Part shown: positions 36,391 through 56,357 of the stretch, piece after piece
How the letters are laid out: the number at the start of each line of letters is the position of its first letter
How positions within the stretch are numbered: position 1 is the stretch's first letter
Source: Candidatus Nanoarchaeia archaeon
GTDB lineage: Archaea > Nanobdellota > Nanobdellia > SCGC-AAA011-G17 > JACPNG01
Reading direction: 5' to 3'
DNA length: 64,000 bases
Assembly: GCA_028714095.1 (NCBI GenBank)
Contig: JAQTMY010000001.1
Location: 185,787 to 249,786 of the forward strand
Translations under genes and position numbers: made by a program
The notes under the pieces: model-generated
Databases searched by the model: none
What the model was told of the DNA's origin: nothing
Seen by the model: the letters and a program-made list of their open reading frames with translations, nothing else

Positions 36391-39300
36391 TTATTTTAAA
36401 AATCCCAAGAAATTTCTTGCCATCCAAAGAATTAAATGAATCTTTAATGTCTTCTTTTTTCCATCTAGCCTTCAAAAGATTTGCCTCAATGACATTATCC
36501 TTAATCCCTTTTGATCTTGCATTTTTGATATAATTGATTACCTTGCTTAAATCTTTTTTAGGTTTCTCCTTAACAATCTTTTTCCCTTTCTTTAATTTAA
36601 AATAATAAAATCCTGCAACAGCAAAGATTATTAAGAAAATTATTATAAATACAAGCCAAGGGAACCCAGAACTTTCTTCTTCAGTATAATTGACTGTAGG
36701 TTCATAAATATTTTCCTCTTCTTCTGTGTTTTCATCTCCATAAAATTCACTTCTGCTGAGGTCTGTCCCGCACGTATTATCTTCCTTGCATATTTTACCT
36801 GAGGGGCATCCGCAGTCTTTGCAATTGAAAGCTAATATTCCTTTCTCACATTTCATGGGTTTTGATGAAGAACATATCCCGTTCTTTGTTCCATCTCTGC
36901 ATGTACTGCTACTTGAAGAACTTAATGTAGTATCACAATCATCGTCATCTTCATCAGTATCTCCATCACAGTCATTGTCTAAGTCATCACTGCATGAACT
37001 CTCTTCATCCTCCTCATAATCATCTCCGTAATCACACTCATCCCATTCTAAATCCTCATTGCATTCTTGTGTTGAATCCTCACAGACTCCTTCCTGTAAA
37101 CTACAATCCTGTTCATCCCCTTCTTCATCACATTCACATCCTTCATCAATGCTCCCATCGCAGTCATTGTCCAGGTCATCACATAAAGTTTCACTTGATT
37201 CATAATTTATAGAACTATTATAAACACAAGTACTCCAGGAATTACTTACACAAGTTGAATTTATTTTAGCGCAAACTCCAGATCCACAAACTTTAGTATC
37301 TCCATTAGAACAAATAGTTGTTGTTGAAGTAGTATCCATCTCATAGCAAGGACTGTCGCTAAAAGTATTAAACATACTACAGGCCTTATATAATTTGGTT
37401 GAGTCTTCTGCTTTGGATTCAGGATCAAATACCAATAAAGTAGATTTGCCGTCATTGGATTCTGTACTAATCCCGCTGCCAACAGTACTTAAATAATATA
37501 ATTTTCCTTCATATTGAACACTTGCCCCATTTCCAATCGGGAATTCTGGCTGATTAATTGTCTTAACATCAATCCATTTCTTTTGATCAAAATCATAATA
37601 TTCAACATTAGTAGTTCCTTTTTTATTGTTTAGAGTAGCTCCTCCGATAACATAAACTTTATTCCCCTTAACAACTATCCCAGGATCCAAACCATGCTCA
37701 TAAATACTATCCTGCAATTGGGTCCACGAATTTGTTATAGGATCATACATATGGAATAATTTTTGGTTTGAAGCATAATTTCTCCCATTAATATTAAATA
37801 TCCTCCCTCCAACAACATAAACTTTATCATTATAGCTAAACATACCAGGACTTTTTCTTGGGTTAGGAGCAGATTGTAATTTAGCTCTTCCTCCATTTGA
37901 AGCAAGAGTTTGAAATTTTGGGGTATATGGTTTTTCAGTATAGTATGTTATCTTTGAAGTATCAATAACAAATAAATCAGAAAGCCAATTTACTTTTAAT
38001 CCAAGTTCATCATAATTTTTAAAATCAAGTTCATCGTTCCCATACATTGCATTTGCAATCCCCCCAAAAACATAAATTTTATTTCCAATAACTGTACTTC
38101 CGTGGTACATGGTATTTTGTTGACCATAATTTACCCCTCTTCCGCAGTTTTCAGTTCTGCAATCAACTCCAATCGATGCAACTCTCCCCCACCAGTCTAT
38201 TTCAGGATTAAATGAATAAATTACAAATAAAGTATGGGCATTTACAGCAGGCAATCCAAACCCTGCAATAAGATATAGCCAATCCCCAACATTTTCAAGA
38301 CTATTCCCAACAAGGGGTTTATTACCTTCTTCATTTGCTCCCCCTCCTGTTTGAGAAGGGTCATACTTAACAACTAACCAATTTGTATAATCTGGATCTG
38401 GGGCCACCCATTTCTTTTCAGGTTCGTTATGTGTTTCCCATAATCCTGTAGTAAAATTATATTTCTCCATCTGCCCCACAATTGTAAAAGTAGATTTAGG
38501 TTTGGGAGTTGTACCCCATGCAACAAGCCAGCAGTATTTATCTATCCCCCACCATTTCTCTCCTAAATTAGTTCTTCCCGCAATCGCATATAATCCTCCC
38601 TCGTTAATTGCAGAACCTCCTTCTATATGTGGGAACATTGAATCAGGTAATCTTGTCCAGACCCCTTGACAATTTGTACATGTGGTACTGCACTTTTGAT
38701 ACTCATTCCATATACATTCTGCAGTGCAATCACTTCCAGAACAATCTTGGTCAATACCATCCCCGCAAATATCCTTAGATCCTTTTTTCACTAATGGATT
38801 TTTATCATCACAATCCTCACTTGAACAAATCCCATCACCGTCTTCATCAGAACCCTTTCCTGCCATTGTACATCTTCCGGGGATAAGAACCCAGGAAGGA
38901 TAACTTTCCTCACTTTCCTTACAAGGTTCATAATTATTAGGATCATAAACATTATCTACCGAGATAGGAAATTGTGTAACAATATTCTTTCCAGCACATC
39001 CATAACTCTCTCCTTCCTTAATCCCCCAGCAACCATTATCATCATTGTCGATCATCCCATCACCGTCATTGTCAATACCATCAGAACAAGCAGGTTTCTT
39101 TAGCTCACTAATTTCCTTCTCATCAAACCATTCTTCCCATGGTTGGGTAGATTTAGATTGTTTCCATTTAGCATAAGCACATTTGCAGGCCACATCTTCT
39201 TTACCTGGTTGTAAATCTATCTTTCCATCATTATCATTGTCGATGCCATCATAACAACTTCCAGTACCAATATTCTCAGAATTAAAATAAGTATAACACG

Positions 39301-40399
39301 AGCAGTCAGACGCTTTAGTTATTGTTTTTTCAGTTGCTCCGTCAAAGCATAAGGATTTGCTGTTTCCATCCTTGTCATATTGATTTACATAAAGGCATTT
39401 ATCATAAACAACTCCTTCAAGTATCAATAAATTATAAAGACTGTATTTGAAATTCAATGGTTTTGTATTACAACTTAAATCATTAAATCCTCGGATAAAA
39501 TTGGAGGATATTTTATTGTCAGTTTCAATCTTGGAAAATAATTTTAAATCAATACAACCATACCTGAGTTTTGCATTATCCCCCAATTCATTGCCGTTGT
39601 GAGCAACAACATTAAATAAATAACCTCCCCCTAAATCTCCAAAACTAAATTGCCCGTTAAAATCTGCTCCAGTCTCTAATTTTAATCTAGAACTTAAAAC
39701 ATCTCCATAGAAATATTCAAACTCGTTTACTCCAGAAGTTTTAAGATTAACTGAAGCATCTGTGATATCAAGCCTTTTGGCATTTTCATTTATAAAATTA
39801 TAAAATCCTTCCAGAACACCAATACCATAATTATAATCATCCTCACATTTTTTCTTTGCGGTTTCATCAGCTGCTTTTGTCAAACAATCTTTCTTTGTTT
39901 TTTCTAAGTTTGTTCTTCCTTCTGAAAAATGATTTAAGTTAGAGCTTTCAAAAGAAATTTTTCCTTCATATTTATTGCACACTAATAAAACTTCATTATA
40001 ACTCTGATAAACACTATCTCCTATCTTAACAGGTTCAAATAAAGTATTGTCTCCTTTGTAGACAAAAGCACAATCTCCTTCTTTAACCGCTTGGGAATAT
40101 GTTATTTTTGTAGCAATTTCATTCTCCCAAACATTTCCGGTTCCAGGAGTCTTGCTTACACATTTATTACTACTACAAGTTTGCAAGGCCCCACAGCAAA
40201 TATCATTGCAACAAGTTCCTGTACAGCAATCAACAGAACTGCAGCTTTGCCCGACATGAGCACAACTTCCTGGAGTGGAAGGATTATCTGGATCATTATA
40301 GCTTGGATCTTTGCTTATTGCAATTACAAAAACTGAAAGTAATATTGTTAATAACATAACCAGAATAATTTTATTTTTAGATTGCATAATTAAACTCAT
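36359..40399 (-). CDS. Giant (1346 aa) Cys-rich surface protein: signal peptide, Kelch-type beta-propeller repeats, acidic Cys-Asp repeats (C-x-D-x-D-N-D-C-D-G), a C-terminal TM anchor and a Lys-rich tail
   Basis: Propeller repeats: VYVVGGR...YDPITNSW and VYVIGGAT...YDFDQKKW. Acidic repeats: DDLDNDCDGSIDEGC and SDDLDNDCDGDTDEDDDDC. C-terminal TM FPWLVFIIIFLIIFAVAGFYYF, followed by KLKKGKK. Confidence 0.7.
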   Translation of the reverse strand: MSLIMQSKNKIILVMLLTILLSVFVIAISKDPSYNDPDNPSTPGSCAHVGQSCSSVDCCTGTCCNDICCGALQTCSSNKCVSKTPGTGNVWENEIATKITYSQAVKEGDCAFVYKGDNTLFEPVKIGDSVYQSYNEVLLVCNKYEGKISFESSNLNHFSEGRTNLEKTKKDCLTKAADETAKKKCEDDYNYGIGVLEGFYNFINENAKRLDITDASVNLKTSGVNEFEYFYGDVLSSRLKLETGADFNGQFSFGDLGGGYLFNVVAHNGNELGDNAKLRYGCIDLKLFSKIETDNKISSNFIRGFNDLSCNTKPLNFKYSLYNLLILEGVVYDKCLYVNQYDKDGNSKSLCFDGATEKTITKASDCSCYTYFNSENIGTGSCYDGIDNDNDGKIDLQPGKEDVACKCAYAKWKQSKSTQPWEEWFDEKEISELKKPACSDGIDNDGDGMIDNDDNGCWGIKEGESYGCAGKNIVTQFPISVDNVYDPNNYEPCKESEESYPSWVLIPGRCTMAGKGSDEDGDGICSSEDCDDKNPLVKKGSKDICGDGIDQDCSGSDCTAECIWNEYQKCSTTCTNCQGVWTRLPDSMFPHIEGGSAINEGGLYAIAGRTNLGEKWWGIDKYCWLVAWGTTPKPKSTFTIVGQMEKYNFTTGLWETHNEPEKKWVAPDPDYTNWLVVKYDPSQTGGGANEEGNKPLVGNSLENVGDWLYLIAGFGLPAVNAHTLFVIYSFNPEIDWWGRVASIGVDCRTENCGRGVNYGQQNTMYHGSTVIGNKIYVFGGIANAMYGNDELDFKNYDELGLKVNWLSDLFVIDTSKITYYTEKPYTPKFQTLASNGGRAKLQSAPNPRKSPGMFSYNDKVYVVGGRIFNINGRNYASNQKLFHMYDPITNSWTQLQDSIYEHGLDPGIVVKGNKVYVIGGATLNNKKGTTNVEYYDFDQKKWIDVKTINQPEFPIGNGASVQYEGKLYYLSTVGSGISTESNDGKSTLLVFDPESKAEDSTKLYKACSMFNTFSDSPCYEMDTTSTTTICSNGDTKVCGSGVCAKINSTCVSNSWSTCVYNSSINYESSETLCDDLDNDCDGSIDEGCECDEEGDEQDCSLQEGVCEDSTQECNEDLEWDECDYGDDYEEDEESSCSDDLDNDCDGDTDEDDDDCDTTLSSSSSSTCRDGTKNGICSSSKPMKCEKGILAFNCKDCGCPSGKICKEDNTCGTDLSRSEFYGDENTEEEENIYEPTVNYTEEESSGFPWLVFIIIFLIIFAVAGFYYFKLKKGKKIVKEKPKKDLSKVINYIKNARSKGIKDNVIEANLLKARWKKEDIKDSFNSLDGKKFLGIFKIIKGNKTKQAK

Positions 40400-41087
40400 A
40401 ACCTCCTGCAGTCACCTTGCACATTCTGTCTCTATCAACTAACATACATCTGTCAGGTCCATTTTCTATTCCAGTATCTAACCCCCATTCAACTCCAGAA
40501 TCCAAAAGAGCCCTGACCTGCCCAACCGCTTTGTTGTATAAATTTAAAAATGGTATGTCTGATTTATACTCAAATTGATTATAATTAACCTCTTCATTTC
40601 CTTTTTTGATTTTTAATGGAAAGTCTACCTTCAATAAAGTGCTATCCTCATAATAATTAACGTTAACAAAAATATCTCCGTAGTTTATAGTATACCCTTC
40701 AGTTTTAAATTCCTGAAAATAATTTACACAATTCAGAAAATTATCCCTAAAATAAAGATTAATTTCATCAATGATTTTTCCATCAGAAGGAGGTCCTCCA
40801 CCATAAGAACTATAAAACTTGGCAATGTTCAAAGAACCAACTTTAACAACATCCTGATGTTCCTTGTAGTTCCCTCCTTGTTTTGCAATTAATACCAATG
40901 AATCTTCTCCAACCTGTTCAACACAATCCTGCGTAAAATCATAGATTGCCTCTGTATCGCTTGAAATCTTTTCTCCCAATGTAGTTTCATTTCCAGAACT
41001 TCTTCCAACAATCAGGAATAAGGCAATGACAACAACTATAACAATCCCAATAATAATAAATAAAGTAACCTGCCCCCTTTTCCCCAT
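40377..41087 (-). CDS. Type IV pilin-like protein (class III signal peptide), co-transcribed with the giant surface protein
   Basis: N-terminus MGKRGQVTLFIIIGIVIVVVIALFLIV matches the archaeal prepilin (K/R)G-Q-hydrophobic pattern. It overlaps the start of the giant gene. Confidence 0.5.
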   Translation of the reverse strand: MGKRGQVTLFIIIGIVIVVVIALFLIVGRSSGNETTLGEKISSDTEAIYDFTQDCVEQVGEDSLVLIAKQGGNYKEHQDVVKVGSLNIAKFYSSYGGGPPSDGKIIDEINLYFRDNFLNCVNYFQEFKTEGYTINYGDIFVNVNYYEDSTLLKVDFPLKIKKGNEEVNYNQFEYKSDIPFLNLYNKAVGQVRALLDSGVEWGLDTGIENGPDRCMLVDRDRMCKVTAGGYEFNYAI

Positions 41088-41118: not shown

Positions 41119-44100
41119 TTAACTAAACCACCTGTTTAATCCTTCTTGCTTTTCAGACTCTTTTCCAAAAACACTTTCTATTCTTTTCTGTAATAATTCT
41201 AAAGTTTGTTGTAAATAAGGAGGCAAATCATATTTCTTGGCTAAATCCAGACTTGGTTCAAGATATTTAATAATAGAACCTTCAGCAATTGTAAATATAA
41301 TTCTTCCCCCACAGCTTAAACACTTCCCCATCAATGGAGGTCTTCTGTATTTTTCATTGCAGTCAACGCATCTGAATTGCTGCATTGAAAATTTTCTTAG
41401 GTTACCTTTAATATCTCTTAGAAAATGCCTTTCAATTATTAATCTTGCAACATCCCCCTCATCCACAGCTCTTATTTTTTCAGCCAAATCCATTTGTCCC
41501 TTTACCTTATCTTGCATGGAAGGAATTGTTTTGTATGCACTGCATAAAGTCCCTTGGTTTATGTCAAAAGGATCATGGGTAAATCCCATCCCCTCATACT
41601 GTTTCTCAGTTCCTAATCTTCCTCTATAAGTCTCAATCATTATCTCCCATGGGAACTTAAACTGCTCTGCAGATTCATAAAATTCTAAAGGATATTTCCA
41701 TGCAGTATCCATGTTGAATACCATATCATCAACTTCTGCAGGGATTAATTTAAAGTTTAAAACTAAAGGAGCATCCTGCCTTGCCCCTCTATGCCCGGGT
41801 AAATATAATTTTGAAAAATTAAGCAGAGCATCAAGGAGTAATACAACACAGGCTTCATCTCCATCCGCATCCCTCCTCATCATACAATGCAATAATGGAT
41901 GTGCATAAAATCCCTGGGTTTTTGAAAAGCCTATTACTCTGCATAAGTTTCCTGCAGAGGTGTGTGGACTTAAAGCAACCAACAAACTTCCTGTAACATC
42001 TTCTTCGCTTTTAAAATTATAATACCTTGATAATCCATATAAATTTTCTAATAGATCATCAACAAATCTTCCAACCCTGAATAAGATTTTATCAGCCCCT
42101 TCTTCTAAAGATCCCTCGCATGAAGGCAGGATAATATCTTGACACTTTAGTTCTATAACCTGATTTTCATCTACAATATCCCTTCCATAAATATCTTTAT
42201 CATACCCCAACTGTTTTATTTTTTTAATATTAGTTCCTATCTCCTTAAGCTTAAAATGAGTTAAAGCAGTCTCAGTCATATCATATCTTACAGTTCCATC
42301 CTTATTTACATGAATATTATATATGCTTCTCAGAATCCCCTTAACTAAATTCTCAGGGATTTTATCCTCACTCCAGACCCCCTTAACCCCTTTGATTAAA
42401 TCCTTATATTCTGTAATGTTCAGCTTTGCTAAGGCATTCCTGAAATAATGATTAACATCAACTCCGCGGCTTGTATAAGTTCTGCTTAGATGAGTCACTT
42501 CTTGTTCCTTCCCCTCCTTATCCTTTACCTTCTTGGTTTTTTCACATTTGGTTTCAAGAATTTTATCATCATCATAACAATAATATCTCTTTTGTGTTCT
42601 TATCCCACAAACTTCGCAGGTAGGATAAATTGTTTCCTTGTTGCATTTTATACAGTAAAAGTAAGGCCATTCAGCATTAACCTTTCCTTTTTCTAATGCA
42701 CTTTGCAGATTTCTCATTTTTCCGCCTTCCTCTCCTACTGGAAATAAGACATGGGGGTTTCCTGTTAATTTCCTTATCTTTGCTTTTTCAGGTCTTCCCA
42801 TCCTTGCACCGATGAAATGACCGTTCTTATCCTTAATATCAAAATTAAACATATTAAGAATCTTCAAACAATCTTCTTTGTTAAAATCCAGTTTTGAAAG
42901 GTCTTTAAAAATATAATTTAATACAAAACAATCCCCTCCGGAAATATAAACTTGATTCTCTATTACCCTATGCGGTACCCCTAATAATTCTAATGTCCTT
43001 TTAGGATCTTCTCCCTCAATAACTTCTTTGATGTCATATTCTAAAGGGAGAATAATCTCATTCTCTGTCTTAGTTGCATGCTTAATCCATTCAACAAAAT
43101 TTTCCAGTTGTTTTTTGGAAATATTTTTCCAATGGTATGTATATCTTGGATGCAGTGGAATTTTATATAAGGTGCTCATTTTTATTGCATCTTCTCCAGA
43201 AATTTGTTTGTACGGATTTTTTATTAGTTCATTAACAGCTTCATTTTTATTTTCTAATTTTTCAAGAATTGCCCTGTGCCATTCCTCATTATACCCGCAT
43301 GGAATTAATCTGTGCCCCCTGTCAAGAAAGTCTCCATAATTAATTAAAATATCTCCTAAAAATAAAATTTCTTCTATCTTATTTTTAAATAATAATGCTT
43401 TTTCCTCTGTGTCAACTAAAACAACATCCCCATTCTTTAATTTTACAATTGGCCCTTCAAGAGTATCACATACAGCCAAGACTGTAGACTTCCCAGGTCT
43501 CTCCGTTCTTAGCTGTGTTCCAACAGCTAAATAGTCATTTAATATTCTCATAGTTGCAGGATGTACCGCATCAGAACTGAATCCTGAATTTCTCGCTCTT
43601 CCATATCTTAATCTGAATCCTCCATTCCTTAATGGATAAGTTAGTATTGGCCTACCAGCAACTAAATCTTTTATAAAAGTATAATCTGGTTTAACTAACT
43701 GGTCAGAAGCAGTTTTTCCTTTTGATTTTGCTTTTATTTTTTTCTGTAATTCAACAAACTCCTCAAGGAAATCCATGCTGGTTATTCCAAAATCCTGTTT
43801 CCATTTTGAAAATTTGGAAAAGAACTTGGCAGCTTTTTGTGTTAAGCCCTCACCTATAACTAAAGCTATCCCATTCCTTAATCTGTTTGTTTCAATTCTT
43901 TCAAGGTTTTTATAATTGGAAACCTCAATTTTTTCAGAGGGTTCTCCATCAATCTGCACAGGTAAATGTTTTATCATAAACTCTATTTCAGGTTCTGAGG
44001 GAAAATACTGTAGATTAGTTATTCTCTCATGGAAATCTATCACTTCTGTAATCATTCTCTTGACTTCTTCTTCAGTGGGATCATAAACCTCATAACCCAT

Positions 44101-44628
44101 CTTTTGTCTTACATAATCTGCCAAAGCAACAAAAACACATGTAGCAGTTGTTCCAGCACTTCTTATTGGTCCTGAAAAAAATAGGGAAAAATAAGGCTTG
44201 CCATCTTTTCTTTTTTTCAAGGCTAGTTTAGTAAATCCCTCTAAGGGACTAGCTACAACCCCATTAGTAATATAAGCCAATCCAACTCTTAACCCTACTT
44301 CCATGGCCAACCTCTCGTCGCTAAACTTACAGAATTTTTGTTGTGCAACTTCCAATGCGACGGTAAATGCAATTCTCCAGTCCTGGCTTCCATATTGTTT
44401 TTCTAATTCCTCTATTCTTTGCAGAATTCCTGAACCTTTAACCTGGGGGGCAACAGTTCCAATTAACCCTTCTACCCTTGCAGCCATGTTTTTAGCTAGG
44501 TTTATTTCAACTTCATCAGCAGGATCATATCCTTTTTTTCTTGCCTTAGTTGCTAAATCATATAATATATCTAATTCATTCTTTAATTTATCAAAATACA
44601 TTTCCATATTTTCACTTGCCTGATTCAT
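41119..44628 (-). CDS. polD2: DNA polymerase II (PolD) large subunit DP2
   Basis: Length about 1170 aa with conserved DP2 blocks and C-terminal Cys clusters (CVDCNEKY...CLSCGG). It is immediately downstream of DP1 and cdc6. Confidence 0.9.
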   Translation of the reverse strand: MNQASENMEMYFDKLKNELDILYDLATKARKKGYDPADEVEINLAKNMAARVEGLIGTVAPQVKGSGILQRIEELEKQYGSQDWRIAFTVALEVAQQKFCKFSDERLAMEVGLRVGLAYITNGVVASPLEGFTKLALKKRKDGKPYFSLFFSGPIRSAGTTATCVFVALADYVRQKMGYEVYDPTEEEVKRMITEVIDFHERITNLQYFPSEPEIEFMIKHLPVQIDGEPSEKIEVSNYKNLERIETNRLRNGIALVIGEGLTQKAAKFFSKFSKWKQDFGITSMDFLEEFVELQKKIKAKSKGKTASDQLVKPDYTFIKDLVAGRPILTYPLRNGGFRLRYGRARNSGFSSDAVHPATMRILNDYLAVGTQLRTERPGKSTVLAVCDTLEGPIVKLKNGDVVLVDTEEKALLFKNKIEEILFLGDILINYGDFLDRGHRLIPCGYNEEWHRAILEKLENKNEAVNELIKNPYKQISGEDAIKMSTLYKIPLHPRYTYHWKNISKKQLENFVEWIKHATKTENEIILPLEYDIKEVIEGEDPKRTLELLGVPHRVIENQVYISGGDCFVLNYIFKDLSKLDFNKEDCLKILNMFNFDIKDKNGHFIGARMGRPEKAKIRKLTGNPHVLFPVGEEGGKMRNLQSALEKGKVNAEWPYFYCIKCNKETIYPTCEVCGIRTQKRYYCYDDDKILETKCEKTKKVKDKEGKEQEVTHLSRTYTSRGVDVNHYFRNALAKLNITEYKDLIKGVKGVWSEDKIPENLVKGILRSIYNIHVNKDGTVRYDMTETALTHFKLKEIGTNIKKIKQLGYDKDIYGRDIVDENQVIELKCQDIILPSCEGSLEEGADKILFRVGRFVDDLLENLYGLSRYYNFKSEEDVTGSLLVALSPHTSAGNLCRVIGFSKTQGFYAHPLLHCMMRRDADGDEACVVLLLDALLNFSKLYLPGHRGARQDAPLVLNFKLIPAEVDDMVFNMDTAWKYPLEFYESAEQFKFPWEIMIETYRGRLGTEKQYEGMGFTHDPFDINQGTLCSAYKTIPSMQDKVKGQMDLAEKIRAVDEGDVARLIIERHFLRDIKGNLRKFSMQQFRCVDCNEKYRRPPLMGKCLSCGGRIIFTIAEGSIIKYLEPSLDLAKKYDLPPYLQQTLELLQKRIESVFGKESEKQEGLNRWFS

Positions 44629-46255
44629 CTTCCCAAAAATTAATTATGCTTACCTCCCTTGTTTTAAGATTAATAACAGGAACTCTTCCAGGTTCTGCAA
44701 TATGTCCTACCTTGTCCTGGAAGGGGGTCTGTTTCTGCCATGCAGATGAAGCAATCATCGTGACATTATTATAATTTAAAACCGCCGCCCTATGGATATG
44801 CCCCGAAATAAAAAAATCAGGAACCTTCTCAATGACTAATGGATCTAAATCTTTGTATGGAACATACAATGTAGAGGTATGGCTTGGAGCCAAATGTCTT
44901 TTTTGGAGTAATAATTTCATAACTAAGTCTGTTCTTTCAGATATATTTGGTTTCATCAACCTTATTCTCTCAACCTTGTCAGCATAATAATCATAACTAT
45001 ATCCATGATATAATAAAAAATCAAATCCCATGAAGTGTTCAGAAGAATGTATATTAACAACAGAAGGGTTGCTTACAATAAAAACATTTTCCATGTTGTA
45101 GAGATCTTCAGCATAATGTCTTGGTTGTGGAGGTTGTGGCTCCCCAATCCTTAAAGCATCGTGATTCCCAGAAGTAATTATTATCTTGATATCCTTCCTT
45201 ATCTTGTTTAATAATTCCGCAACCCTTTTGTACTGTTCCCTTATATCCCTTAACGTTAATTCCTCTTCCTGGCCTGGATAAATTCCAAGTCCGTCAACAA
45301 TATCCCCCATAACAAAAAGATATTTTATCTTGCTTGCAATCCTCTTTTGTTTTATATTTCCATACTCCCCATTGAGCCATGAAACAAAATTAAGAAATTC
45401 TTTTTCCATAAATAAATTGCTTCCCACATGCATATCTCCAGTTATAACTGCATAAACCTCATCTTCAGATTTCTTAAATTCCATTGTGTGAGGCACATCA
45501 GGAAAAAATATATCAGAAACAAAAACAACCTTATCCCCCATTGTTCCATTAATTCCAATGACCTCATCCAGGACAATATCCTGTGCTTTGATGAAGGATT
45601 CGTTTGTTTTTGTGATAAGTATATTTATATTACCTGTATTGTCCTCCATTGCAATCTTAAGATGCCCCGCCTTGGTTGTTTGTATATCATTGACTAATCC
45701 AATTAAAGCAACAGGTTCTCTTAATGATTTATTCAAGGTCCTGTTAATTGAGATAACATTCTGTAGTTCATTTCTTGACTGCAACATCTCTTTTATTTTA
45801 TTATACCTTGCTCTAAAATACAAAACAAAATCCTGAACCTCTCTTTTACTTGCTTCTTCCATATAGGATTTCAGGACAACAACACTGCTCCCAATTTTTT
45901 CTTTCTCAATCTCATCCTTTTCAGGTTCCTTGATTTCTTCTAGAACCTTATCCATTACCTTCTTGGTTTTTTCAGATAGATTATAATTAAAAATATCCAT
46001 AAATAATTTGTAATCTTCTTCACTCCTTCCTTTTTCATGCATTGTTTTTGCTCTTTCAAACTCCTTCCAGCTCACATCCATTAAAACCCCTTTTTGGATT
46101 AGAGGTAGAATCTCCTTATTCAGAACCAGAACTCCCTTATCAGAATAAATATTGATTATCTCAGTTAAATTTTCATTTAATCCCTCAAGGACATCTTTGA
46201 GTTCTGGGCTGACTAATATTCCTTTTTCTAAAAAATAATTAATTGTATTTTTCAT
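44612..46255 (-). CDS. polD1: DNA polymerase II (PolD) small subunit DP1 (calcineurin-like phosphoesterase)
   Basis: GDMHVGS and GNHD phosphoesterase motifs; an OB-domain region lies upstream. Confidence 0.85.
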   Translation of the reverse strand: MKNTINYFLEKGILVSPELKDVLEGLNENLTEIINIYSDKGVLVLNKEILPLIQKGVLMDVSWKEFERAKTMHEKGRSEEDYKLFMDIFNYNLSEKTKKVMDKVLEEIKEPEKDEIEKEKIGSSVVVLKSYMEEASKREVQDFVLYFRARYNKIKEMLQSRNELQNVISINRTLNKSLREPVALIGLVNDIQTTKAGHLKIAMEDNTGNINILITKTNESFIKAQDIVLDEVIGINGTMGDKVVFVSDIFFPDVPHTMEFKKSEDEVYAVITGDMHVGSNLFMEKEFLNFVSWLNGEYGNIKQKRIASKIKYLFVMGDIVDGLGIYPGQEEELTLRDIREQYKRVAELLNKIRKDIKIIITSGNHDALRIGEPQPPQPRHYAEDLYNMENVFIVSNPSVVNIHSSEHFMGFDFLLYHGYSYDYYADKVERIRLMKPNISERTDLVMKLLLQKRHLAPSHTSTLYVPYKDLDPLVIEKVPDFFISGHIHRAAVLNYNNVTMIASSAWQKQTPFQDKVGHIAEPGRVPVINLKTREVSIINFWEDESGK

Positions 46256-47460
46256 AAACCCAATCCGGTTTTCAATAAATCCTTTACCTTAGGTACTGTT
46301 GAACTGGGAATTGCTAACCTTATTTCCCTTGTACGTCCATACCTCCCCTTGCTAATTACTTTAGCATTAATAATACCTAACATATCCAATTCCGCAATAA
46401 TGTCGGATACTCTTCTTTGTGTTAATGGTTTAAGCCCAACCTTGATGCATGCATCCTTGTAGAGTTCATAGATATCCCCTGTGAAGATTGGTTTGTCATC
46501 GCTGAAAGTCATACTAAAAATTGAATATAATGCCAATTTGAATTGTTTTGGTTGTGTACTTATTGTATCTAATACTCTATCCCTCTCTATTTTTTCCTGG
46601 GCATCATCAATGTGCTTCATTAAAATATGAATCTCATTACCTCTCTCTGCAATTTCTCCCGCAACTCTCAATAACTCTAATGCCCTTCTTGCATCTCCGT
46701 GTTCTCTTGCAGCATAAGCCGCACATTTTTCTATTACCCCTTCTTCCATTGCTTTCGGCCTAAACGCAATATTTACCCTTTCCCTCAAGATGCTTTGTAG
46801 CTGAACAGCATTATATGGAGGAAATACTAATTCTTCCTCCCCCAAACTGCTTTTTACTCTTGGATCCAATTCAGACGTAAAAGTTAAATCATTGGAAATC
46901 CCTATCAGAGAGATTTCTGTATTTTTTAATTCATGATTTAATCTTGTTAAATTGTACAAGATTCCATCATCAATCTTTTTTACTAGCTGATCAATTTCAT
47001 CTAAGATTAAGATAAGTAATATTTTTTCTTTGTCAATCTCTTTGATAAAAATTTTATAAACCTCATCTGTTGGCAATCCCGTTGCCGGAACTTCTACTCC
47101 TAACTCCCTTGTGATCTGGGCAATTAATCTATATTCTGTATCAGCAACTCTTTTTAATTTACAGTTAAGGTAAACAATTTTAAGGGGTAAATTATTTTTC
47201 TTGGCAATTTTAATTAGATCATCGCTAACTTTAGTAATAGAAACCGTTTTCCCTGTTCCGGTTTTTCCATAAATAAAAAGATTGCTTGGTTTTTCCATCC
47301 TTAAGGAAGGAGCCAATATTCCCGCAATATTTTTGATTTGATCATCCCTATGCGGAATGTTTTCCGGGGTGTAATTCATCTGCATTGCTTTCTTGTTAAT
47401 AAACAAGGGTTCTTTTTTTAAGAAATTCTCAAAGTAATTTATCAACTCTTTTTCAGCCAT
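46252..47460 (-). CDS. cdc6: Orc1/Cdc6 replication initiator
   Basis: AAA+ Walker A IYGKTGTGKTVS; Walker B ILILDEID; C-terminal winged helix. Confidence 0.9.
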   Translation of the reverse strand: MAEKELINYFENFLKKEPLFINKKAMQMNYTPENIPHRDDQIKNIAGILAPSLRMEKPSNLFIYGKTGTGKTVSITKVSDDLIKIAKKNNLPLKIVYLNCKLKRVADTEYRLIAQITRELGVEVPATGLPTDEVYKIFIKEIDKEKILLILILDEIDQLVKKIDDGILYNLTRLNHELKNTEISLIGISNDLTFTSELDPRVKSSLGEEELVFPPYNAVQLQSILRERVNIAFRPKAMEEGVIEKCAAYAAREHGDARRALELLRVAGEIAERGNEIHILMKHIDDAQEKIERDRVLDTISTQPKQFKLALYSIFSMTFSDDKPIFTGDIYELYKDACIKVGLKPLTQRRVSDIIAELDMLGIINAKVISKGRYGRTREIRLAIPSSTVPKVKDLLKTGLGL

Positions 47461-47958
47461 TTTAATTCTTCCCTCTTAGTTTTTATTTAAAGATTGTTGG
47501 TCTATAAAATTAATAGTTAAAATATAAACACCAACACCCCTATTTCATATAGAACAAATACATGAAAGATTTAATATAAAAAACTTCATTACCACTCTAA
47601 CTAAACACCAACCCTTCTTATGGAAAAATATTCAAACAAATAAATAATAAAATATATATGATAGAATATAGAAAATCTTTTAAATTAAATATATAAATTA
47701 TAAATCTAAATTCTTTAATATTTTAATACTACAACCCCTAGGAGTCTATTTTAGCCAATTAAAGTTCCATACCCCCACTTTATTAAAAAAGCTAAATCCA
47801 GGTTTCCATAGGTAATAGAGGTTACATTTGCTTCCAAATGAAAAAAAACCCAAAAACAAAATATTTAGAGGTTCCATATGAATTCAAGGTGTGAGGGTCC
47901 CAAAAATAATCCCCCTCCCTCCAAAAACCTTTAAATATTAAAAAACCTAACCAATAAC
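47461..47958. promoter_or_regulatory. Putative replication origin (oriC): an AT-rich unwinding element flanked by repeated TTCCA-N-A-TG (mini-ORB-like) motifs and C/G strings. The cdc6 promoter lies in this region as well.
   Basis: Mini-ORB-like repeats at about 47764, 47803, 47832 and 47871 (gttccatac, gtttccatagg, cttccaaatg, ggttccatatg). Paired acaccaacaccc / acaccaaccc elements at about 47528 and 47605. A nearly pure A/T stretch at about 47640..47720. The region is directly upstream of cdc6-polD. Confidence 0.5.
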
Positions 47959-48249
47959 ATGAATTGGTGGATGATTTTAATAGGTATCCTTGTTCTTTGG
48001 TTATTAATAGAGTTATTAAAACATCTTTTCTTGAGAAAGACTGCAAAAGTATTTATAACTTTGTTGATAATTCTGCTTTTATTTTTAGGAACAAGCAAGT
48101 TGATGATTGATAGTGATATAATTAAGAAAGATGATAGTGAAGTTATTACTACAGGAGCAGCAATAACAGACAAAATCCTCAATACTTTCGGAGAATCTAA
48201 GAAAATAAATATTAATGATCAGAATCTGACAAAATCATTCAAAGATTAA
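47959..48249 (+). CDS. Small membrane protein (hypothetical)
   Basis: Two TM helices; ORF only. Confidence 0.3.
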   Translation: MNWWMILIGILVLWLLIELLKHLFLRKTAKVFITLLIILLLFLGTSKLMIDSDIIKKDDSEVITTGAAITDKILNTFGESKKININDQNLTKSFKD

Positions 48250-54186: not shown

Positions 54187-54230
54187 ACACGCACGCACTC
54201 ACATAAGAATCACATTTGAAGCACATAAAA
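54187..54230. repeat. GC-rich CA/CG simple-sequence tract (acacgcacgcactcaca...), copy 1, intergenic
   Basis: Seen directly. A second, longer copy lies at 54506..54546. Confidence 0.7.
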
Positions 54231-54271: not shown

Positions 54272-54892
54272 ATGGCTGAAAATGGGCTTAATTTTATAGA
54301 AAACGTTAAATTATCCTTTAGTAAGGCTAAAGATGATATAACTTCCTTAGAATTAGAAATAAATAAATTAAAACAAATAATTTCTGAACAAAATAAGAAA
54401 ATAACCAAATTAATTGAAAAAATTGATATTTTAACCATTAAAGAGAAACTTGAGGTTTTTCCAGGGTCTTCCGAAAATAGTTCCATAGGAACTCAAGGGG
54501 TAGAAGCACGCACGCACGCACGCACTCACATCACACTCACACCCCCTAAAAACACCTTTTCAGCCTTTAATATTGAAATAGACCAGCTTTTCGCCAAATT
54601 TACACAAAAGGATTTTCAGGTCTTTCTTACCATATATCAGCTTGAAGAAGAGAAAGGAAAGGTCACCTATACCGACGTGGCCACTCATCTTAATATGTCT
54701 GAATCCGGCATCAGATCATATATCTCCAGATTGATTGCTAAAAATGCTCCCCTCTCAAAAGAGAAAATCAATAACAAACTCTCACTTTTGCATATTTTGC
54801 CAGATTTTAGGAGCCTAAACCTCAAAAGCAAACTTTTGGATATGTACTATCACCAGGACTCACTCCAGAAAAAGCTTTCAGATCAGTTCTGA
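54272..54892 (+). CDS. Coiled-coil plus C-terminal winged-helix protein, carrying an internal simple-sequence repeat in the linker
   Basis: N-terminal heptads. The linker ARTHARTHITLT is encoded by (GCAC/GCACG)n. The C-terminal HTH is KVTYTDVATHLNMSESGIRSYISRL. Confidence 0.45.
   Translation: MAENGLNFIENVKLSFSKAKDDITSLELEINKLKQIISEQNKKITKLIEKIDILTIKEKLEVFPGSSENSSIGTQGVEARTHARTHITLTPPKNTFSAFNIEIDQLFAKFTQKDFQVFLTIYQLEEEKGKVTYTDVATHLNMSESGIRSYISRLIAKNAPLSKEKINNKLSLLHILPDFRSLNLKSKLLDMYYHQDSLQKKLSDQF
54506..54546. repeat. GC-rich (CACG)n/(CA)n simple-sequence tract inside the CDS 54272..54892, copy 2
   Basis: The tract is gcacgcacgcacgcacgcactcacatcacactcacaccccc. Confidence 0.75.
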
Positions 54893-55515
54893 ACTCTCAC
54901 TTTTTGTTTTTTAGCCTGTTTTTTCTGTATATTTAGACCCTTTAATACCTCATTCTTGTATTTTTCGTTGATATAAAACCTCTTTGTACCGTCTGATTCA
55001 GCCCTCTCCTCTATTAAACCCTCACTTTTATGCTTTATATTGTTAATCTGGCCTCTTATGGTAGATTTATCCTTGCCTAGTAAGGACTCCAAGTCTTCAT
55101 AGCTAAGTTTTATCTCAGTATTTAGTAAGGTCCATACCACTAGTCTCTCCATCATAGTCAAATTTTTCAGTTGGATGGCTGTTTGGACAGCTGTTTGGAC
55201 ACCCTCAAACGCCTGTTTGGACACATGTTTGTTTGTGCCTGTTTGTTTTTGGGGGGTTGTTTGGACAGCTGTTTGTTTTTCAAACAGGGAGGCAAGCTTC
55301 TTTTCAATCTCGTCCAATCTTGCATGGATATTTAAGAACTCTTTTTCATGTTTATGATTCTTCTCTTTGAAATGATTTATCCAATCAGAAATCTTACTCA
55401 TATCCTCCCTTACTTTTGCAAAGGATTGTTTGCTATTAGAATGAACATTATCAATTCTTTTGTGAATGTGTTCCTCTTTTTTTCTGGTAAAAAAACCAAA
55501 CAGCATAATAATCAA
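54883..55515 (-). CDS. Coiled-coil plus C-terminal winged-helix protein (paralogous architecture to 54272..54892), carrying an internal tandem repeat
   Basis: HTH core KLSYEDLESLLGKDKSTIRGQINNI. The linker GVQTAVQTA is encoded by tandem CTGTTTGGACA units. Confidence 0.45.
   Translation of the reverse strand: MIIMLFGFFTRKKEEHIHKRIDNVHSNSKQSFAKVREDMSKISDWINHFKEKNHKHEKEFLNIHARLDEIEKKLASLFEKQTAVQTTPQKQTGTNKHVSKQAFEGVQTAVQTAIQLKNLTMMERLVVWTLLNTEIKLSYEDLESLLGKDKSTIRGQINNIKHKSEGLIEERAESDGTKRFYINEKYKNEVLKGLNIQKKQAKKQKVRVQN
55173..55282. repeat. Imperfect tandem repeats of about 11 bp (CTGTTTGGACA / TGTTTGTTT) inside the CDS 54883..55515
   Basis: The sequence is ggctgtttggacagctgtttggacaccctcaaacgcctgtttggacacatgtttgtttgtgcctgtttgtttttggggggttgtttggacagctgtttgttttt. 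Confidence 0.7.
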
Positions 55516-55547: not shown

Positions 55548-56357
55548 CTAATCAAGAGGACTCTTGATTTTTTTGATTTGTTCCTGTGAAACATGTGTAT
55601 AAATCTGCGTTGTACTGAGTTGTGAATGCCCAAGTAACTCCTGTATCAGCCTTATGTCCGTCCCATTCTCGAGCAAATGAGTGGCAAAACTATGCCTTAG
55701 GGTATGTGGTGTAACCCTCTTCTTAATCCCTGCCTTAAATGCGACATTCTGTATGATTTTCTGTATATTTCTCGTCGTCAAACCCCTCTTTTCTTTTCCA
55801 GGGAATAGGTAAGGAGAGGCTTCAGGAAGTGTTTGAATATACTTTTCAAGGTCCTTTAATATCTTTCCAGCAACAATAGTTATTCTGTCTTTGTTCCCTT
55901 TTCCAGACTTAACCCTTATTGTTTTTTCCTTGAAATCAATTTGTTCTGTCTTTAGGTTTACAAGTTCAGAAACCCGGAGTCCAGTACTATATAACAATTC
56001 AATTATTAGCCTAGTTTTATTGTTCTTGGCATTTTTTATAAGCAAAAAAATTTCATCTCTGCTTAAAACTTCCGGGTTTGACTTGGGAATCTTGGGAGTT
56101 TTTAAATTAACTATATTTTTTCCCAAAATTTCATCATAAAAAAACTTCAATGCGCTCTTCTTCAAGGAAACACTTCTTGGCTTCAAGCTTAAATCAGAGA
56201 CTAAATAACTCATATACTTCTTGATATCCTCTTCTTCTACCTCTTTTGGTTCTTTTTTGATATAATCAAGAAATAATTTGTTATGCCTTATGTAAGAGCT
56301 GAGAGTTTCCTTGGAAAAACCCCTCAATTTTAATTCCATCTCAAGTTTATCTAACAA
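55548..56357 (-). CDS. Tyrosine recombinase, XerC/XerD (archaeal XerA)-like. The ORF as listed starts at a TTG codon.
   Basis: C-terminal catalytic region HTLRHSFATHLLENGTDIRLIQELLGHSQLSTTQIYTHV (R...HxxR...Y). Confidence 0.85.
   Translation of the reverse strand: MLDKLEMELKLRGFSKETLSSYIRHNKLFLDYIKKEPKEVEEEDIKKYMSYLVSDLSLKPRSVSLKKSALKFFYDEILGKNIVNLKTPKIPKSNPEVLSRDEIFLLIKNAKNNKTRLIIELLYSTGLRVSELVNLKTEQIDFKEKTIRVKSGKGNKDRITIVAGKILKDLEKYIQTLPEASPYLFPGKEKRGLTTRNIQKIIQNVAFKAGIKKRVTPHTLRHSFATHLLENGTDIRLIQELLGHSQLSTTQIYTHVSQEQIKKIKSPLD

What the first reader, a model, noticed from the sequence alone, without database searches (positions are those of the whole stretch)
47461..47958. Putative oriC next to the cdc6-polD1-polD2 operon
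The roughly 500-bp intergenic region upstream of cdc6 contains an almost pure A/T block (about 47640..47720). On either side are repeated elements: four TTCCA-N-A-TG motifs and paired acaccaacaccc / acaccaaccc elements (listed under the 47461..47958 feature). These resemble mini-ORB half sites (TTCCAGTGG). C-rich strings (cccccac, ccccctccctcc) lie nearby. ORB / DUE / ORB next to cdc6 and polD is the classical architecture of archaeal origins, for example in Pyrococcus.
Basis: partly seen in the sequence, partly recalled or inferred. Interest (0 to 1): 0.55.

Follow-up and report, generated by a model that had tools for sequence, protein, structure and literature searches.

The report
Replication origin of a Woesearchaeal genome
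The 498-bp gap upstream of the cdc6/orc1 gene has the sequence layout of a classical archaeal chromosome replication origin (initiator-binding boxes in opposite orientation around an easily melted A/T block), conserved across about 80 related uncultured DPANN archaea; this is expected rather than surprising, and origin activity itself was not tested.

Summary
Window 47461-47958 lies between orc1/cdc6 (46252-47460, minus strand, followed by PolD DP1 and DP2) and a divergent small membrane-protein gene.

- **Initiator boxes (ORBs).** There are four full-length ORBs, two on each side and in inverted orientation. The family consensus is TTCC-ATA-GGAA-AT-nAA-GGTGTnGG.
- **Unwinding element.** The ORBs flank the least stable 100 bp of the whole 64-kb window (47628-47728, 92% A+T).
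- **Statistics.** A matrix trained only on relatives puts 4 of its 5 best window hits inside these 498 bp, against 0.007 expected.
- **Conservation.** In 80 related Woesearchaeota/Nanoarchaeia loci the same layout recurs: 3.64 ORBs per kb upstream of cdc6 against 0.031 per kb elsewhere.
- **Initiator.** The protein is an Orc1-1 orthologue and keeps the DNA-contact residues.

- The "acaccaac" elements are the G-rich tails of two minus-strand ORBs whose dyads were missed.
- One of the four TTCCA sites and both C-rich strings are not conserved.
- GC skew is inconclusive.

Extra findings:
- A single-copy, oriented, conserved motif sits inside the A/T block.
- An isolated ORB lies 7 kb away.
- Related assemblies often break at this origin.

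Verdict: a new member of a known kind. No Orc1 binding or origin firing was tested.

The parts
46252..47460 (-). orc1/cdc6 initiator gene (402 aa), first gene of the orc1-DP1-DP2 cluster
   Evidence: Pfam Cdc6_C 1.9e-28, Cdc6_lid 5.3e-23, AAA_22. The best solved relatives are S. solfataricus Orc1-1 (2QBY_A, 2.7e-109) and A. pernix ORC1 (2V1U, 1.6e-98), against Orc1-3 at 1.7e-45. ISM G128-L129, HTH R349/R350 and wing R373 are conserved. It is the only Orc1-like ORF in the window.
41119..46255 (-). PolD small (44612-46255) and large (41119-44628) subunit genes, overlapping each other and orc1
   Evidence: Pfam DNA_pol_E_B and Metallophos; PolC_DP2_N, PolC_DP2_central and PolC_DP2_cat.
47484..47491 (-). 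TATA-like box (TTTAAATA) of the orc1 promoter, ending 23 nt upstream of the ATG
   Evidence: Read from the sequence. CTTTAAATAA is conserved in L001 and L002. Promoter function is inferred.
47527..47556 (-). ORB-P1 (promoter-proximal): TGTTCTATATGAAATAGGGGTGTTGGTGTT
   Evidence: PWM 21.5 bits. Conserved in L001 and L002. It corresponds to the site at about -80 found in nearly all related loci.
47598..47627 (-). ORB-P2 (adjacent to the DUE): TTTTCCATAAGAAGGGTTGGTGTTTAGTTA
   Evidence: PWM 22.4 bits. Conserved in L001 and L002. It lies 71 nt from ORB-P1, which is the modal spacing in relatives (68-74 nt in 22 loci).
47628..47728 (.). DNA unwinding element (A/T block, 92% A+T)
   Evidence: Least stable 60-, 100- and 150-bp stretch of the 64-kb window (z = 4.2, 4.8, 3.9). 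In 62 relatives A+T peaks at 86-90% at -240 to -180, with T excess on the orc1-sense strand.
47651..47688 (-). Conserved single-copy motif inside the DUE: TTAATTTAAAAGATTTTCTATATTCTATCATATATATT (family consensus TTTaTAAATTTTTCTATnnTATATTATATAT)
   Evidence: A PWM trained on relatives scores 23.0 bits here against 11.7 for the next best hit in the window. It is present in 48 of 65 loci, 47 of 48 in orc1-sense orientation, with only 4 hits elsewhere in about 580 kb. Its function is unknown.
47710..47741 (-). Conserved box at the distal edge of the DUE (TAGGGGTTGTAGTATTAAAATATTAAAGAAT on the minus strand). It resembles the G-rich tail of ORB-P1 but has no dyad.
   Evidence: Conserved in L001 and L002. 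It is a 73% direct repeat of 47517-47542 (D1). A looser GGCTTGTAtTAT box is seen by eye in several relatives but was not quantified.
47802..47831 (+). ORB-D2 (inner distal ORB): GTTTCCATAGGTAATAGAGGTTACATTTGC
   Evidence: PWM 13.9 bits. The dyad and the AAGGT tail are conserved in L001 and L002 (L002 scores 17).
47830..47859 (+). Mini-ORB / dyad-only element (TTCCAAATGAA at 47832-47842) with a C-rich rather than G-rich 3' flank
   Evidence: PWM only 6.2 bits, but TTTC(A/G)TTTGGA(A/G) plus TTGGG is conserved in L001 and L002.
47870..47899 (+). ORB-D1 (outer distal ORB): GGTTCCATATGAATTCAAGGTGTGAGGGTC
   Evidence: Best PWM hit of the whole window, 29.2 bits. Conserved in L001 and L002. It forms an inverted repeat with ORB-P1 (I2).
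47930..47937 (+). TATA-like box (TTTAAATA) of the divergent small gene, 21 nt before its ATG
   Evidence: Read from the sequence. Promoter function is inferred.
47959..48249 (+). Divergent small membrane-protein gene (96 aa) that bounds the origin region
   Evidence: tblastn finds 67% and 59% identical homologues at the same position in L001 and L002. No Pfam hit.

Best explanation
This is most likely the chromosomal replication origin (oriC1 type) of a Woesearchaeal (DPANN, Nanoarchaeia/Nanobdellota) genome.

**Shown here**
- Two ORBs lie on each side of a roughly 100-bp A/T-rich unwinding element.
- The two sides are in opposite orientation. In each ORB the TTCC-N3-GGAA dyad faces the A/T block and the GGTGT-type G-rich tail points away from it.
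- The region sits immediately upstream of an Orc1-1-type initiator gene that retains the residues known to read ORB DNA.
- The whole arrangement is conserved across related species.

**Inferred from work on Sulfolobus, Aeropyrum and Pyrococcus**
- One Orc1 monomer binds each ORB with a fixed polarity, the winged helix on the dyad and the AAA+ ISM on the G-rich tail.
- ATP-bound Orc1 on the inverted inner ORBs recruits MCM hexamers onto the intervening A/T block.
- The A/T block then melts, and two forks leave in opposite directions.
- ORB-P1, about 35 nt upstream of the orc1 TATA box, probably also lets Orc1 regulate its own operon.

**Unassigned**
- A conserved, single-copy, oriented motif inside the A/T block (TAAATTTTTCTAT followed by a TA run) is part of the conserved structure, but its role is not known.
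For: **Gene context and initiator type.** Searches confirm the gene context and the Orc1-1 type of the initiator. The equivalents of the DNA-contact residues defined by mutagenesis in Sso Orc1-1 (G120/L121, R341, R365; PMC3089459) are present and invariant in 16 homologues.

**ORB consensus.** One hundred sites from 59 relatives give nTTTCCATAgGAAATnAAGGTGT. The unseeded columns carry G/G/T/G/T at 62-78% in a background of about 13% G.

**Agreement with published ORBs.** The geometry and core match the Pyrococcus 13-mer TTCCAGTGGAACT, with its 'perfectly conserved TTCC and GAA' (PMC1904270). They also match the Sso Orc1-1 mORB GATTTTCAGATGAAACG (PMC3089459). The dyad plus G-rich bipartite definition is the one used by Ori-Finder-Arch (10.64898/2026.08.15.744077).

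**Non-circular test.** The matrix was trained without the window or its two close relatives. It places hits of 29.2, 22.4, 21.5 and 13.9 bits in the 498 bp; these are 4 of the top 5 hits in 128 kb scanned. The expected number of hits at or above 12 bits is 0.007, and none of 2000 simulations reached the observed count.

**Conservation.**
- 200 ORB hits fall in the 800 bp upstream of cdc6, against 18 in the remaining roughly 580 kb (3.64 against 0.031 per kb).
- Orc1-sense sites sit at about -80 and -150.
- The A/T maximum sits at about -250.
- Antisense sites sit at -330 to -480.
- The P1-P2 spacing is quantised at 39-40 or 68-74 nt.

**Other support.**
- The DUE is the least stable stretch of the window.
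- Phylogenetic footprints appear in the 3-way alignment.
- Genes diverge from the region: 103 kb point away and 22 kb point toward it on the upstream side of 53 loci.
- The model of inverted ORBs, a DUE and MCM recruitment is taken from PMC12141716, PMC3607249 and PMC4010727.
Against: - There is no experimental evidence of initiation or Orc1 binding.
- GC skew does not give a clean inflection. The cumulative G-C curve flattens at about 48 kb but reaches its minimum at the window's end. To the right of the site, minus-strand genes still have the higher sense-strand GC3 skew (0.18 against 0.10), which is the opposite of the expectation.
- Pooled relatives likewise show no leading-strand G excess.
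- Only 64 kb of a 509-kb contig could be examined, so other origins or other orc1 genes elsewhere in the genome cannot be excluded.
- Some archaea with a canonical oriC do not need it (Thermococcus kodakarensis, PMC5663688).
Confidence: 0.85

Rival explanations
1. The region is only a divergent promoter/operator region. The ORBs would be Orc1 autoregulatory operators for the orc1-polD operon, and replication would start elsewhere.
For: ORB-P1 lies about 35 nt upstream of the orc1 TATA-like box, and TATA-like boxes for both flanking genes lie in the region. Skew gives no independent support for an origin.
Against: An operator role does not explain three features:
- the inverted distal ORBs 300-450 nt from the ATG;
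- the conserved extreme A/T block between them;
- the conserved 71-nt ORB spacing.

In every experimentally mapped case this architecture next to orc1-1 is an origin (PMC4010727, PMC12141716). Autoregulation and origin function are also not mutually exclusive.
Confidence: 0.06
2. It is a structurally intact but dormant or dispensable origin. The genome would be replicated mainly from another origin or by recombination-dependent initiation.
For: T. kodakarensis grows without Cdc6 and oriC (PMC5663688). Dormant origins are known in haloarchaea (cited in 10.64898/2026.08.15.744077). Only 64 of 509 kb were seen.
Against: ORB sequence, orientation and spacing, and the DUE motif, are under strong purifying conservation across species whose Orc1 proteins are only 64-86% identical. 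That argues for continued use. These genomes are small; published complete Nanobdellota genomes are 0.55-2.7 Mb (10.64898/2026.05.13.725050).
Confidence: 0.07
3. It is a chance pattern: an ordinary A/T-rich intergenic spacer with fortuitous short repeats.
For: The genome is 33% G+C, so A/T-rich spacers and short repeats are common. The generic dyad TTCC-N3-GGAA with one mismatch allowed is not enriched in the window as a whole (41 observed, 37 expected).
Against: The simulations give P < 0.0005 for the ORB hits. The enrichment upstream of cdc6 in 80 loci is 117-fold. The elements are conserved in alignment.
Confidence: 0.01

Closest known systems
Sulfolobus/Saccharolobus oriC1 and Aeropyrum pernix Ori1 (Orc1-1-dependent ORB-DUE-ORB origins)
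   Same: - The initiator is the closest solved relative (2QBY_A, 2V1U) and has conserved ISM, HTH and wing contact residues.
- The ORBs are bipartite and polar.
- Inverted ORBs flank an A/T-rich DUE next to the orc1-1 gene (PMC12141716).
   Different: - The ORB sequence is A/T-shifted (TTCCATAGGAAAT...GGTGT).
- Two ORBs lie on each side.
- The Sulfolobales ucm (TTATACAAAC) is absent from the DUE. A different conserved motif (TAAATTTTTCTAT) occupies it.
- I could not check whether the dyad-toward-DUE polarity is the same as in Sulfolobus.
Pyrococcus/Thermococcales oriC (oriC-cdc6-dp1-dp2 locus)
   Same: - The gene order is the same: origin, then cdc6, then the PolD small and large subunits.
- The ORB core has invariant TTCC and GAA in the same TTCC-N3-GGAA register as the 13-mer TTCCAGTGGAACT (PMC1904270).
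- Long ORBs form an inverted repeat, with additional mini-ORB-like dyads.
   Different: - There is no second ORB cluster inside dp1. In the window's dp1 the best hit is 6.0 bits, and there are no recurrent hits in the relatives.
- There are far fewer mini-ORBs.
- The region is much more A/T-rich.
Bulk computational oriC annotations of archaea (Ori-Finder 2 / Ori-Finder-Arch, DoriC)
   Same: [quoted passage not shown] The preprint states that Nanobdellota assemblies were annotated (10.64898/2026.08.15.744077).
   Different: I found no published description of the Woesearchaeales ORB consensus, its fixed spacing or the DUE motif. No paper in the library contains both 'origin recognition box' and 'DPANN'. 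The complete-genome Nanobdellota preprint only rotates genomes to ORC1/Cdc6.

Membership tests
Archaeal Orc1/Cdc6-linked origin (oriC1 type, ORB-DUE-ORB) | Located in the intergenic region next to an Orc1-1-clade initiator gene | tested here: met
   Pfam Cdc6 domains. The best PDB relatives are Sso Orc1-1 (2.7e-109) and Ape ORC1 (1.6e-98), far ahead of Orc1-3 and Orc1-2 types.
Archaeal Orc1/Cdc6-linked origin (oriC1 type, ORB-DUE-ORB) | Repeated ORBs made of a dyad (TTCC...GAA core) plus an asymmetric G-rich element | tested here: met
   Family consensus TTCC-ATA-GGAA-AT-nAA-GGTGT. Four window sites score 13.9-29.2 bits. Compared with the published TTCCAGTGGAACT (PMC1904270) and GATTTTCAGATGAAACG (PMC3089459).
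Archaeal Orc1/Cdc6-linked origin (oriC1 type, ORB-DUE-ORB) | At least one pair of ORBs in inverted orientation flanking the unwinding element | tested here: met
   Minus-strand ORBs at 47527 and 47598, plus-strand ORBs at 47802 and 47870. The same pattern is seen in most loci with at least 600 bp of upstream sequence.
Archaeal Orc1/Cdc6-linked origin (oriC1 type, ORB-DUE-ORB) | A/T-rich DNA unwinding element between the ORBs | tested here: met
   47628-47728 is the least stable 100 bp of 64 kb, z = 4.76. Relatives show 86-90% A+T at -240 to -180.
Archaeal Orc1/Cdc6-linked origin (oriC1 type, ORB-DUE-ORB) | Conservation of the elements in related genomes | tested here: met
   3-way alignment. 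In 80 loci, 3.64 ORBs per kb upstream against 0.031 per kb elsewhere.
Archaeal Orc1/Cdc6-linked origin (oriC1 type, ORB-DUE-ORB) | Nucleotide-skew / Z-curve extremum at the locus | tested here: inconclusive
   There is a slope break at about 48 kb but no V-shaped minimum, and it is confounded by gene orientation. GC3 skew shows no switch. Only 64 of 509 kb were available.
Archaeal Orc1/Cdc6-linked origin (oriC1 type, ORB-DUE-ORB) | Orc1 binding to the ORBs and replication initiation at the site (footprint, ChIP, 2D gels, marker frequency) | not testable with these tools
   No experimental or read-depth data are accessible.
Thermococcales-type origin locus | Gene order oriC-cdc6-dp1-dp2 | tested here: met
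Thermococcales-type origin locus | Second ORB / mini-ORB cluster inside the dp1 gene (PMC1904270) | tested here: not met
   The best PWM hit in the window's dp1 is 6.0 bits (45918-45947). There are no recurrent hits at or above 12 bits in the dp1 of the relatives.
Sulfolobales/Desulfurococcales ucm-UBP origin element | ucm sequence TTATACAAAC within the DUE | tested here: not met
   No match with up to one mismatch in 47461-47958. The presence of a UBP homologue was not tested.

The most novel reading that the evidence does not exclude
The conserved, single-copy, strictly oriented motif inside the unwinding element (TTTaTAAATTTTTCTAT followed by TATATTATATAT; window 47651-47688, minus strand) may be a lineage-specific origin element distinct from the ORBs.

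It could be:
- the binding site of an unknown origin-accessory protein, functionally analogous to the Sulfolobales ucm/UBP pair; or
- a dyad-only half-ORB (TTCTATA against TTCCATA) that loads a third Orc1 and makes origin melting asymmetric.

A third reading that is not excluded is a TATA-like promoter firing into the DUE toward orc1.
Probability: 0.3. Interest if true: 0.5.

Novelty: new member of a known kind. Interest (0 to 1): 0.3.

Why it matters
- **Explicit origin description for Woesearchaeales.** The report gives an ORB consensus, polarity, quantised spacing and DUE position for this group of uncultured DPANN archaea. In the literature I could search, their origins are only assumed from the position of orc1.
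- **Practical use.** The matrix could be used to rotate and validate complete genomes, to interpret read-depth (growth-rate) profiles in metagenomes, and to explain why MAG contigs so often end here.
- **Biochemical lead.** The DUE-internal motif is a concrete candidate for biochemical follow-up on whether lineages outside the Sulfolobales have origin-accessory factors. PMC12141716 raises this explicitly as an open question.
- **Overall.** The locus confirms textbook architecture rather than challenging it.

Tried and rejected
- **Rfam scan of the whole window.** No RNA family was found, so no known ncRNA explains the conservation.
- **GC skew.** I looked at raw profiles, gene-strand-corrected GC3 skew in the window and a pool of 53 related loci. 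No usable replication signal came out. The apparent inflection is a gene-orientation effect.
- **Second ORB cluster in dp1, as in Pyrococcus.** Absent.
- **Sulfolobus ucm in the DUE.** Absent.
- **Generic dyad search, TTCCNNNGGAA with one mismatch.** Not enriched across the window (41 against 37 expected). The short dyad alone is uninformative; the extended ORB is what discriminates.
- **Viral-contig relatives of the ORF carrying the isolated ORB.** None found. An exact-pattern search for that ORB variant in the 80 loci also found none.
- **ORB polarity compared with Sulfolobus.** The accessible papers did not state which end of the ORB faces the DUE, so I make no claim of identical polarity.
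- **Rest of the 509-kb contig.** It could not be fetched, so a full Z-curve was not possible.

Full report
**Organism and context**

The Orc1/Cdc6 protein encoded at 46252-47460 (minus strand) is identical to a protein from a 'Candidatus Nanoarchaeia archaeon' MAG on a 509-kb contig. Its nearest relatives (64-86% identity) all come from Woesearchaeota/Nanoarchaeota MAGs.

Pfam confirms Cdc6_C, Cdc6_lid and AAA domains. It also confirms PolD small (44612-46255) and PolD large (41119-44628) immediately downstream on the same strand, with overlapping stop and start codons.

On the other side of the 498-bp gap lies a divergent 96-aa membrane-protein gene (47959-48249). It is conserved at the same position in the two closest relatives. 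No other Orc1-like ORF exists in the window, and Rfam finds no RNA.

**The observation**

- The A/T block 47640-47720 is 92.6% A+T.
- By nearest-neighbour free energy, 47628-47728 is the least stable 100 bp of the entire 64 kb (z = 4.76). It is also the least stable at 60 and 150 bp.
- The short motifs exceed chance in simulations of the region's own dinucleotide composition:
  - TTCCANNNGAA: 3 observed, 0.014 expected.
  - ACACCAAC: 2 observed, 0.01 expected. These are the only two copies in the window.

**What the repeats are**

Read on the minus strand, the two 'acaccaac' strings are the 3' parts of two longer elements:

- TGTTCTATATGAAATAGGGGTGTTGGTGTT (47527-47556)
- TTTTCCATAAGAAGGGTTGGTGTTTAGTTA (47598-47627)

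These have the same form as the plus-strand elements to the right of the A/T block:

- GGTTCCATATGAATTCAAGGTGTGAGGGTC (47870-47899)
- GTTTCCATAGGTAATAGAGGTTACATTTGC (47802-47831)

So the region holds two full-length boxes on each side, inverted relative to each other. In each box the dyad end faces the A/T block and the G-rich end points away from it.

**Independent definition of the box**

I fetched 80 related loci and collected every TTCCANNNGAA in the 800 bp upstream of cdc6 in 59 of them. The window and its two close relatives were left out.

The flanks, which were not part of the seed, are strongly conserved. The consensus is nTTTCCATAgGAAATnAAGGTGTnGGnGT, with G/G/T/G/T at 62-78% in a background of about 13% G.

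A matrix built from these sites was used to scan both strands of the window. The best hits were:

| Score (bits) | Position | Strand |
|---|---|---|
| 29.2 | 47870 | + |
| 27.1 | 54479 | + |
| 22.4 | 47598 | - |
| 21.5 | 47527 | - |
| 13.9 | 47802 | + |

Everything else scores below 12 bits. Simulated intergenic regions give 0.007 hits at or above 12 bits, against 4 observed. Sixty simulated 64-kb sequences reach at most 24.6 bits.

**Conservation**

A three-way alignment with the closest relatives (Orc1 86% and 84% identical) shows clear footprints on several elements:

- both proximal boxes;
- the boxes at 47870 and 47802;
- a dyad-only element at 47832-47842;
- a stretch inside the A/T block;
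- a box at the distal edge of the A/T block (47710-47741);
- the TATA-like sequence before orc1.

It shows no conservation of the TTCCA at 47765, of 'cccccac' or of 'ccccctccctcc'.

Across all 80 loci, 200 matrix hits fall in the 800 bp upstream of cdc6 and 18 fall in the remaining roughly 580 kb. That is 3.64 against 0.031 per kb. Because the matrix was trained on these upstream regions, this ratio is partly circular. The window scan above is not.

The layout is stereotyped:

- orc1-sense boxes sit at about -80 and about -150 from the ATG;
- the A+T maximum (86-90%) sits at -240 to -180, with T excess on the orc1-sense strand;
- antisense boxes sit at -330 to -480.

The spacing of the two proximal boxes falls into two tight classes: 39-40 nt in six loci and 68-74 nt in 22 loci. 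The window has 71 nt.

**The initiator**

The best solved relatives are S. solfataricus Orc1-1 (2QBY_A, 2.7e-109) and A. pernix ORC1 (2V1U, 1.6e-98). Both were crystallised on ORB DNA. Orc1-3 (1.7e-45) and the Orc1-2 type (1W5S, 2.5e-19) are much weaker matches.

Mutagenesis of Sso Orc1-1 showed which residues matter for mORB recognition (PMC3089459): ISM G120/L121, HTH R341 and wing R365. I mapped these onto the PDB chain assuming an 11-residue numbering offset. On that mapping they align with G128-L129, R349/R350 and R373 of the window protein. These residues are invariant in 16 homologues.

Two published sites share the TTCC-N3-GGAA register found here:

- the Sso Orc1-1 mORB, GATTTTCAGATGAAACG (PMC3089459);
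- the Pyrococcus 13-mer TTCCAGTGGAACT, with 'perfectly conserved TTCC and GAA' (PMC1904270).

**Mechanism**

The steps below are inferred from established work, not shown here.

- In Sulfolobus oriC1 each ORB binds one Orc1-1 monomer with a defined polarity.
- ORB2 and ORB3 are inverted around an A/T-rich DUE, and both are required for origin firing.
- ATP-bound Orc1-1 recruits MCM to the intervening DNA (PMC12141716, PMC3607249).
- A dyad read by the winged helix plus a G-rich element read by the ISM is the accepted ORB definition (10.64898/2026.08.15.744077).

The window locus has every sequence feature that this model needs. ORB-P1 lies about 35 nt upstream of the orc1 TATA-like box (47484-47491), so autoregulation of the orc1-polD operon is also plausible.

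**Skew**

The raw cumulative G-C curve falls steeply up to about 48 kb and then flattens. Its minimum is at the end of the window, not at this locus. The steep part coincides with a run of minus-strand genes.

Third-codon-position skew behaves as follows:

- left of the site, leading-oriented genes have the higher skew (0.23 against 0.04);
- right of the site, the lagging-oriented genes have the higher skew (0.18 against 0.10).

A pool of 53 related loci shows no leading-strand G excess either. What is clear is that genes diverge from this region. On the upstream side of the relatives, 103 kb of coding sequence points away and 22 kb points toward it. I treat skew as inconclusive, not as refuting. 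Only 64 of 509 kb could be examined.

**A conserved motif inside the A/T block**

Anchoring on a short conserved string revealed the consensus TTTaTAAATTTTTCTATnnTATATTATATAT. A matrix trained on 28 relatives gave these results:

- It scores 23.0 bits at 47651-47688 (minus strand), against 11.7 for the next best hit in the window.
- It occurs in 48 of 65 loci at a median of -215.
- It is in orc1-sense orientation in 47 of 48 cases.
- It has only four hits elsewhere in about 580 kb.

It is therefore origin-specific and not a general promoter motif.

Three readings remain open:

- a half-ORB (TTCTATA against TTCCATA);
- a binding site for an unknown accessory factor, analogous in role but not in sequence to the Sulfolobales ucm, which is absent here;
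- a TATA-like promoter.

I could not discriminate between these.

**Comparison and novelty**

The locus is a member of the Orc1-1-linked ORB-DUE-ORB class. It shares the oriC-cdc6-dp1-dp2 gene order with Thermococcales but lacks their second ORB cluster inside dp1 (PMC1904270).

- Bulk annotation of Nanobdellota origins has been reported (10.64898/2026.08.15.744077).
- A recent preprint on complete Nanobdellota genomes simply rotates genomes to ORC1/Cdc6 and contains no mention of ORBs, oriC or GC skew.
- No paper in the library contains both 'origin recognition box' and 'DPANN'.

I rate this a new member of a known kind. The clade-specific consensus and the DUE motif are the only modestly new content.

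**Things noticed in passing**

- An isolated, very high-scoring ORB lies at 54479-54508. It is inside a putative winged-helix gene next to a tyrosine recombinase.
- Related contigs end at this origin far more often than expected: 19 of 80 end within 600 bp upstream of cdc6, against 3.2 expected. Thirteen of those end inside the A/T block, against 0.59 expected.

Noticed in passing
window 54479-54508 (+), inside ORF 54272-54892: An isolated full-length ORB, AGTTCCATAGGAACTCAAGGGGTAGAAGCA, scores 27.1 bits. That is the second-best hit in the window and higher than any hit in 60 random 64-kb sequences (maximum 24.6). It contains the only perfect TTCC-N3-GGAA dyad in the window. It lies inside a 206-aa ORF with weak winged-HTH hits, about 40 nt after an A/T-rich coding stretch. 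Next to it are a similar ORF (54883-55515, -) and a tyrosine recombinase gene (55548-56357, -). It could be an Orc1 regulatory site or part of an integrated element. No relatives were found in viral contigs.
   Followed up: partly
window 54188-54205 and 54509-54545: A (GCAC)n-like microsatellite, cacgcacgcacgcacgcactcacatcacactcac, follows the isolated ORB directly. A 17-nt copy (CACGCACGCACTCACAT) lies about 320 nt upstream, so the two copies bracket the 5' part of the ORF.
   Followed up: no
loci L003, L008, L013, L015, L027, L029, L034, L040, L042, L048, L050-L052, L059, L064, L067, L068, L075, L080 (5' ends): Nineteen of 80 related contigs end within 600 bp upstream of cdc6, against 3.2 expected if ends were placed at random. 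Thirteen of them end inside the A/T-rich unwinding element, against 0.59 expected, and several of these start in TA-repeat sequence. Short-read MAG assemblies of this clade therefore break systematically at the origin. The likely cause is low coverage or low complexity in DNA of roughly 90% A+T or more.
   Followed up: yes
window 47651-47688 (-); about -215 from the cdc6 ATG in 48 of 65 loci: A single-copy, strictly oriented conserved motif lies inside the unwinding element: TTTaTAAATTTTTCTATnnTATATTATATAT. It scores 23.0 bits in the window against 11.7 for the next best hit, with 4 hits elsewhere in about 580 kb of related loci. Its role is unknown.
   Followed up: partly
loci L019, L050, L053, L066, at +134 to +137 inside cdc6 (antisense): A recurrent ORB-like match (14-19 bits) appears on the antisense strand within the first 170 nt of the cdc6 coding region in four species. 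It is absent from the window. It may be a by-product of coding conservation or an internal Orc1 site.
   Followed up: no
locus L070 (-1183 and -1398) and L062 (-1498): In L070 the antisense ORBs lie about 1.2-1.4 kb upstream of cdc6 instead of 0.3-0.5 kb, and L062 has an extra ORB at -1498. This suggests insertions between part of the origin and cdc6.
   Followed up: no
locus L067, first 70 nt: The contig ends 395 bp upstream of cdc6 in a (TACT)n tandem repeat.
   Followed up: no
window 36359-40399 (-): A 1346-aa protein with Kelch repeats and MopE-like metal-binding motifs is encoded about 700 nt downstream of the polD genes on the same strand, after a 236-aa ORF (40377-41087).
   Followed up: no
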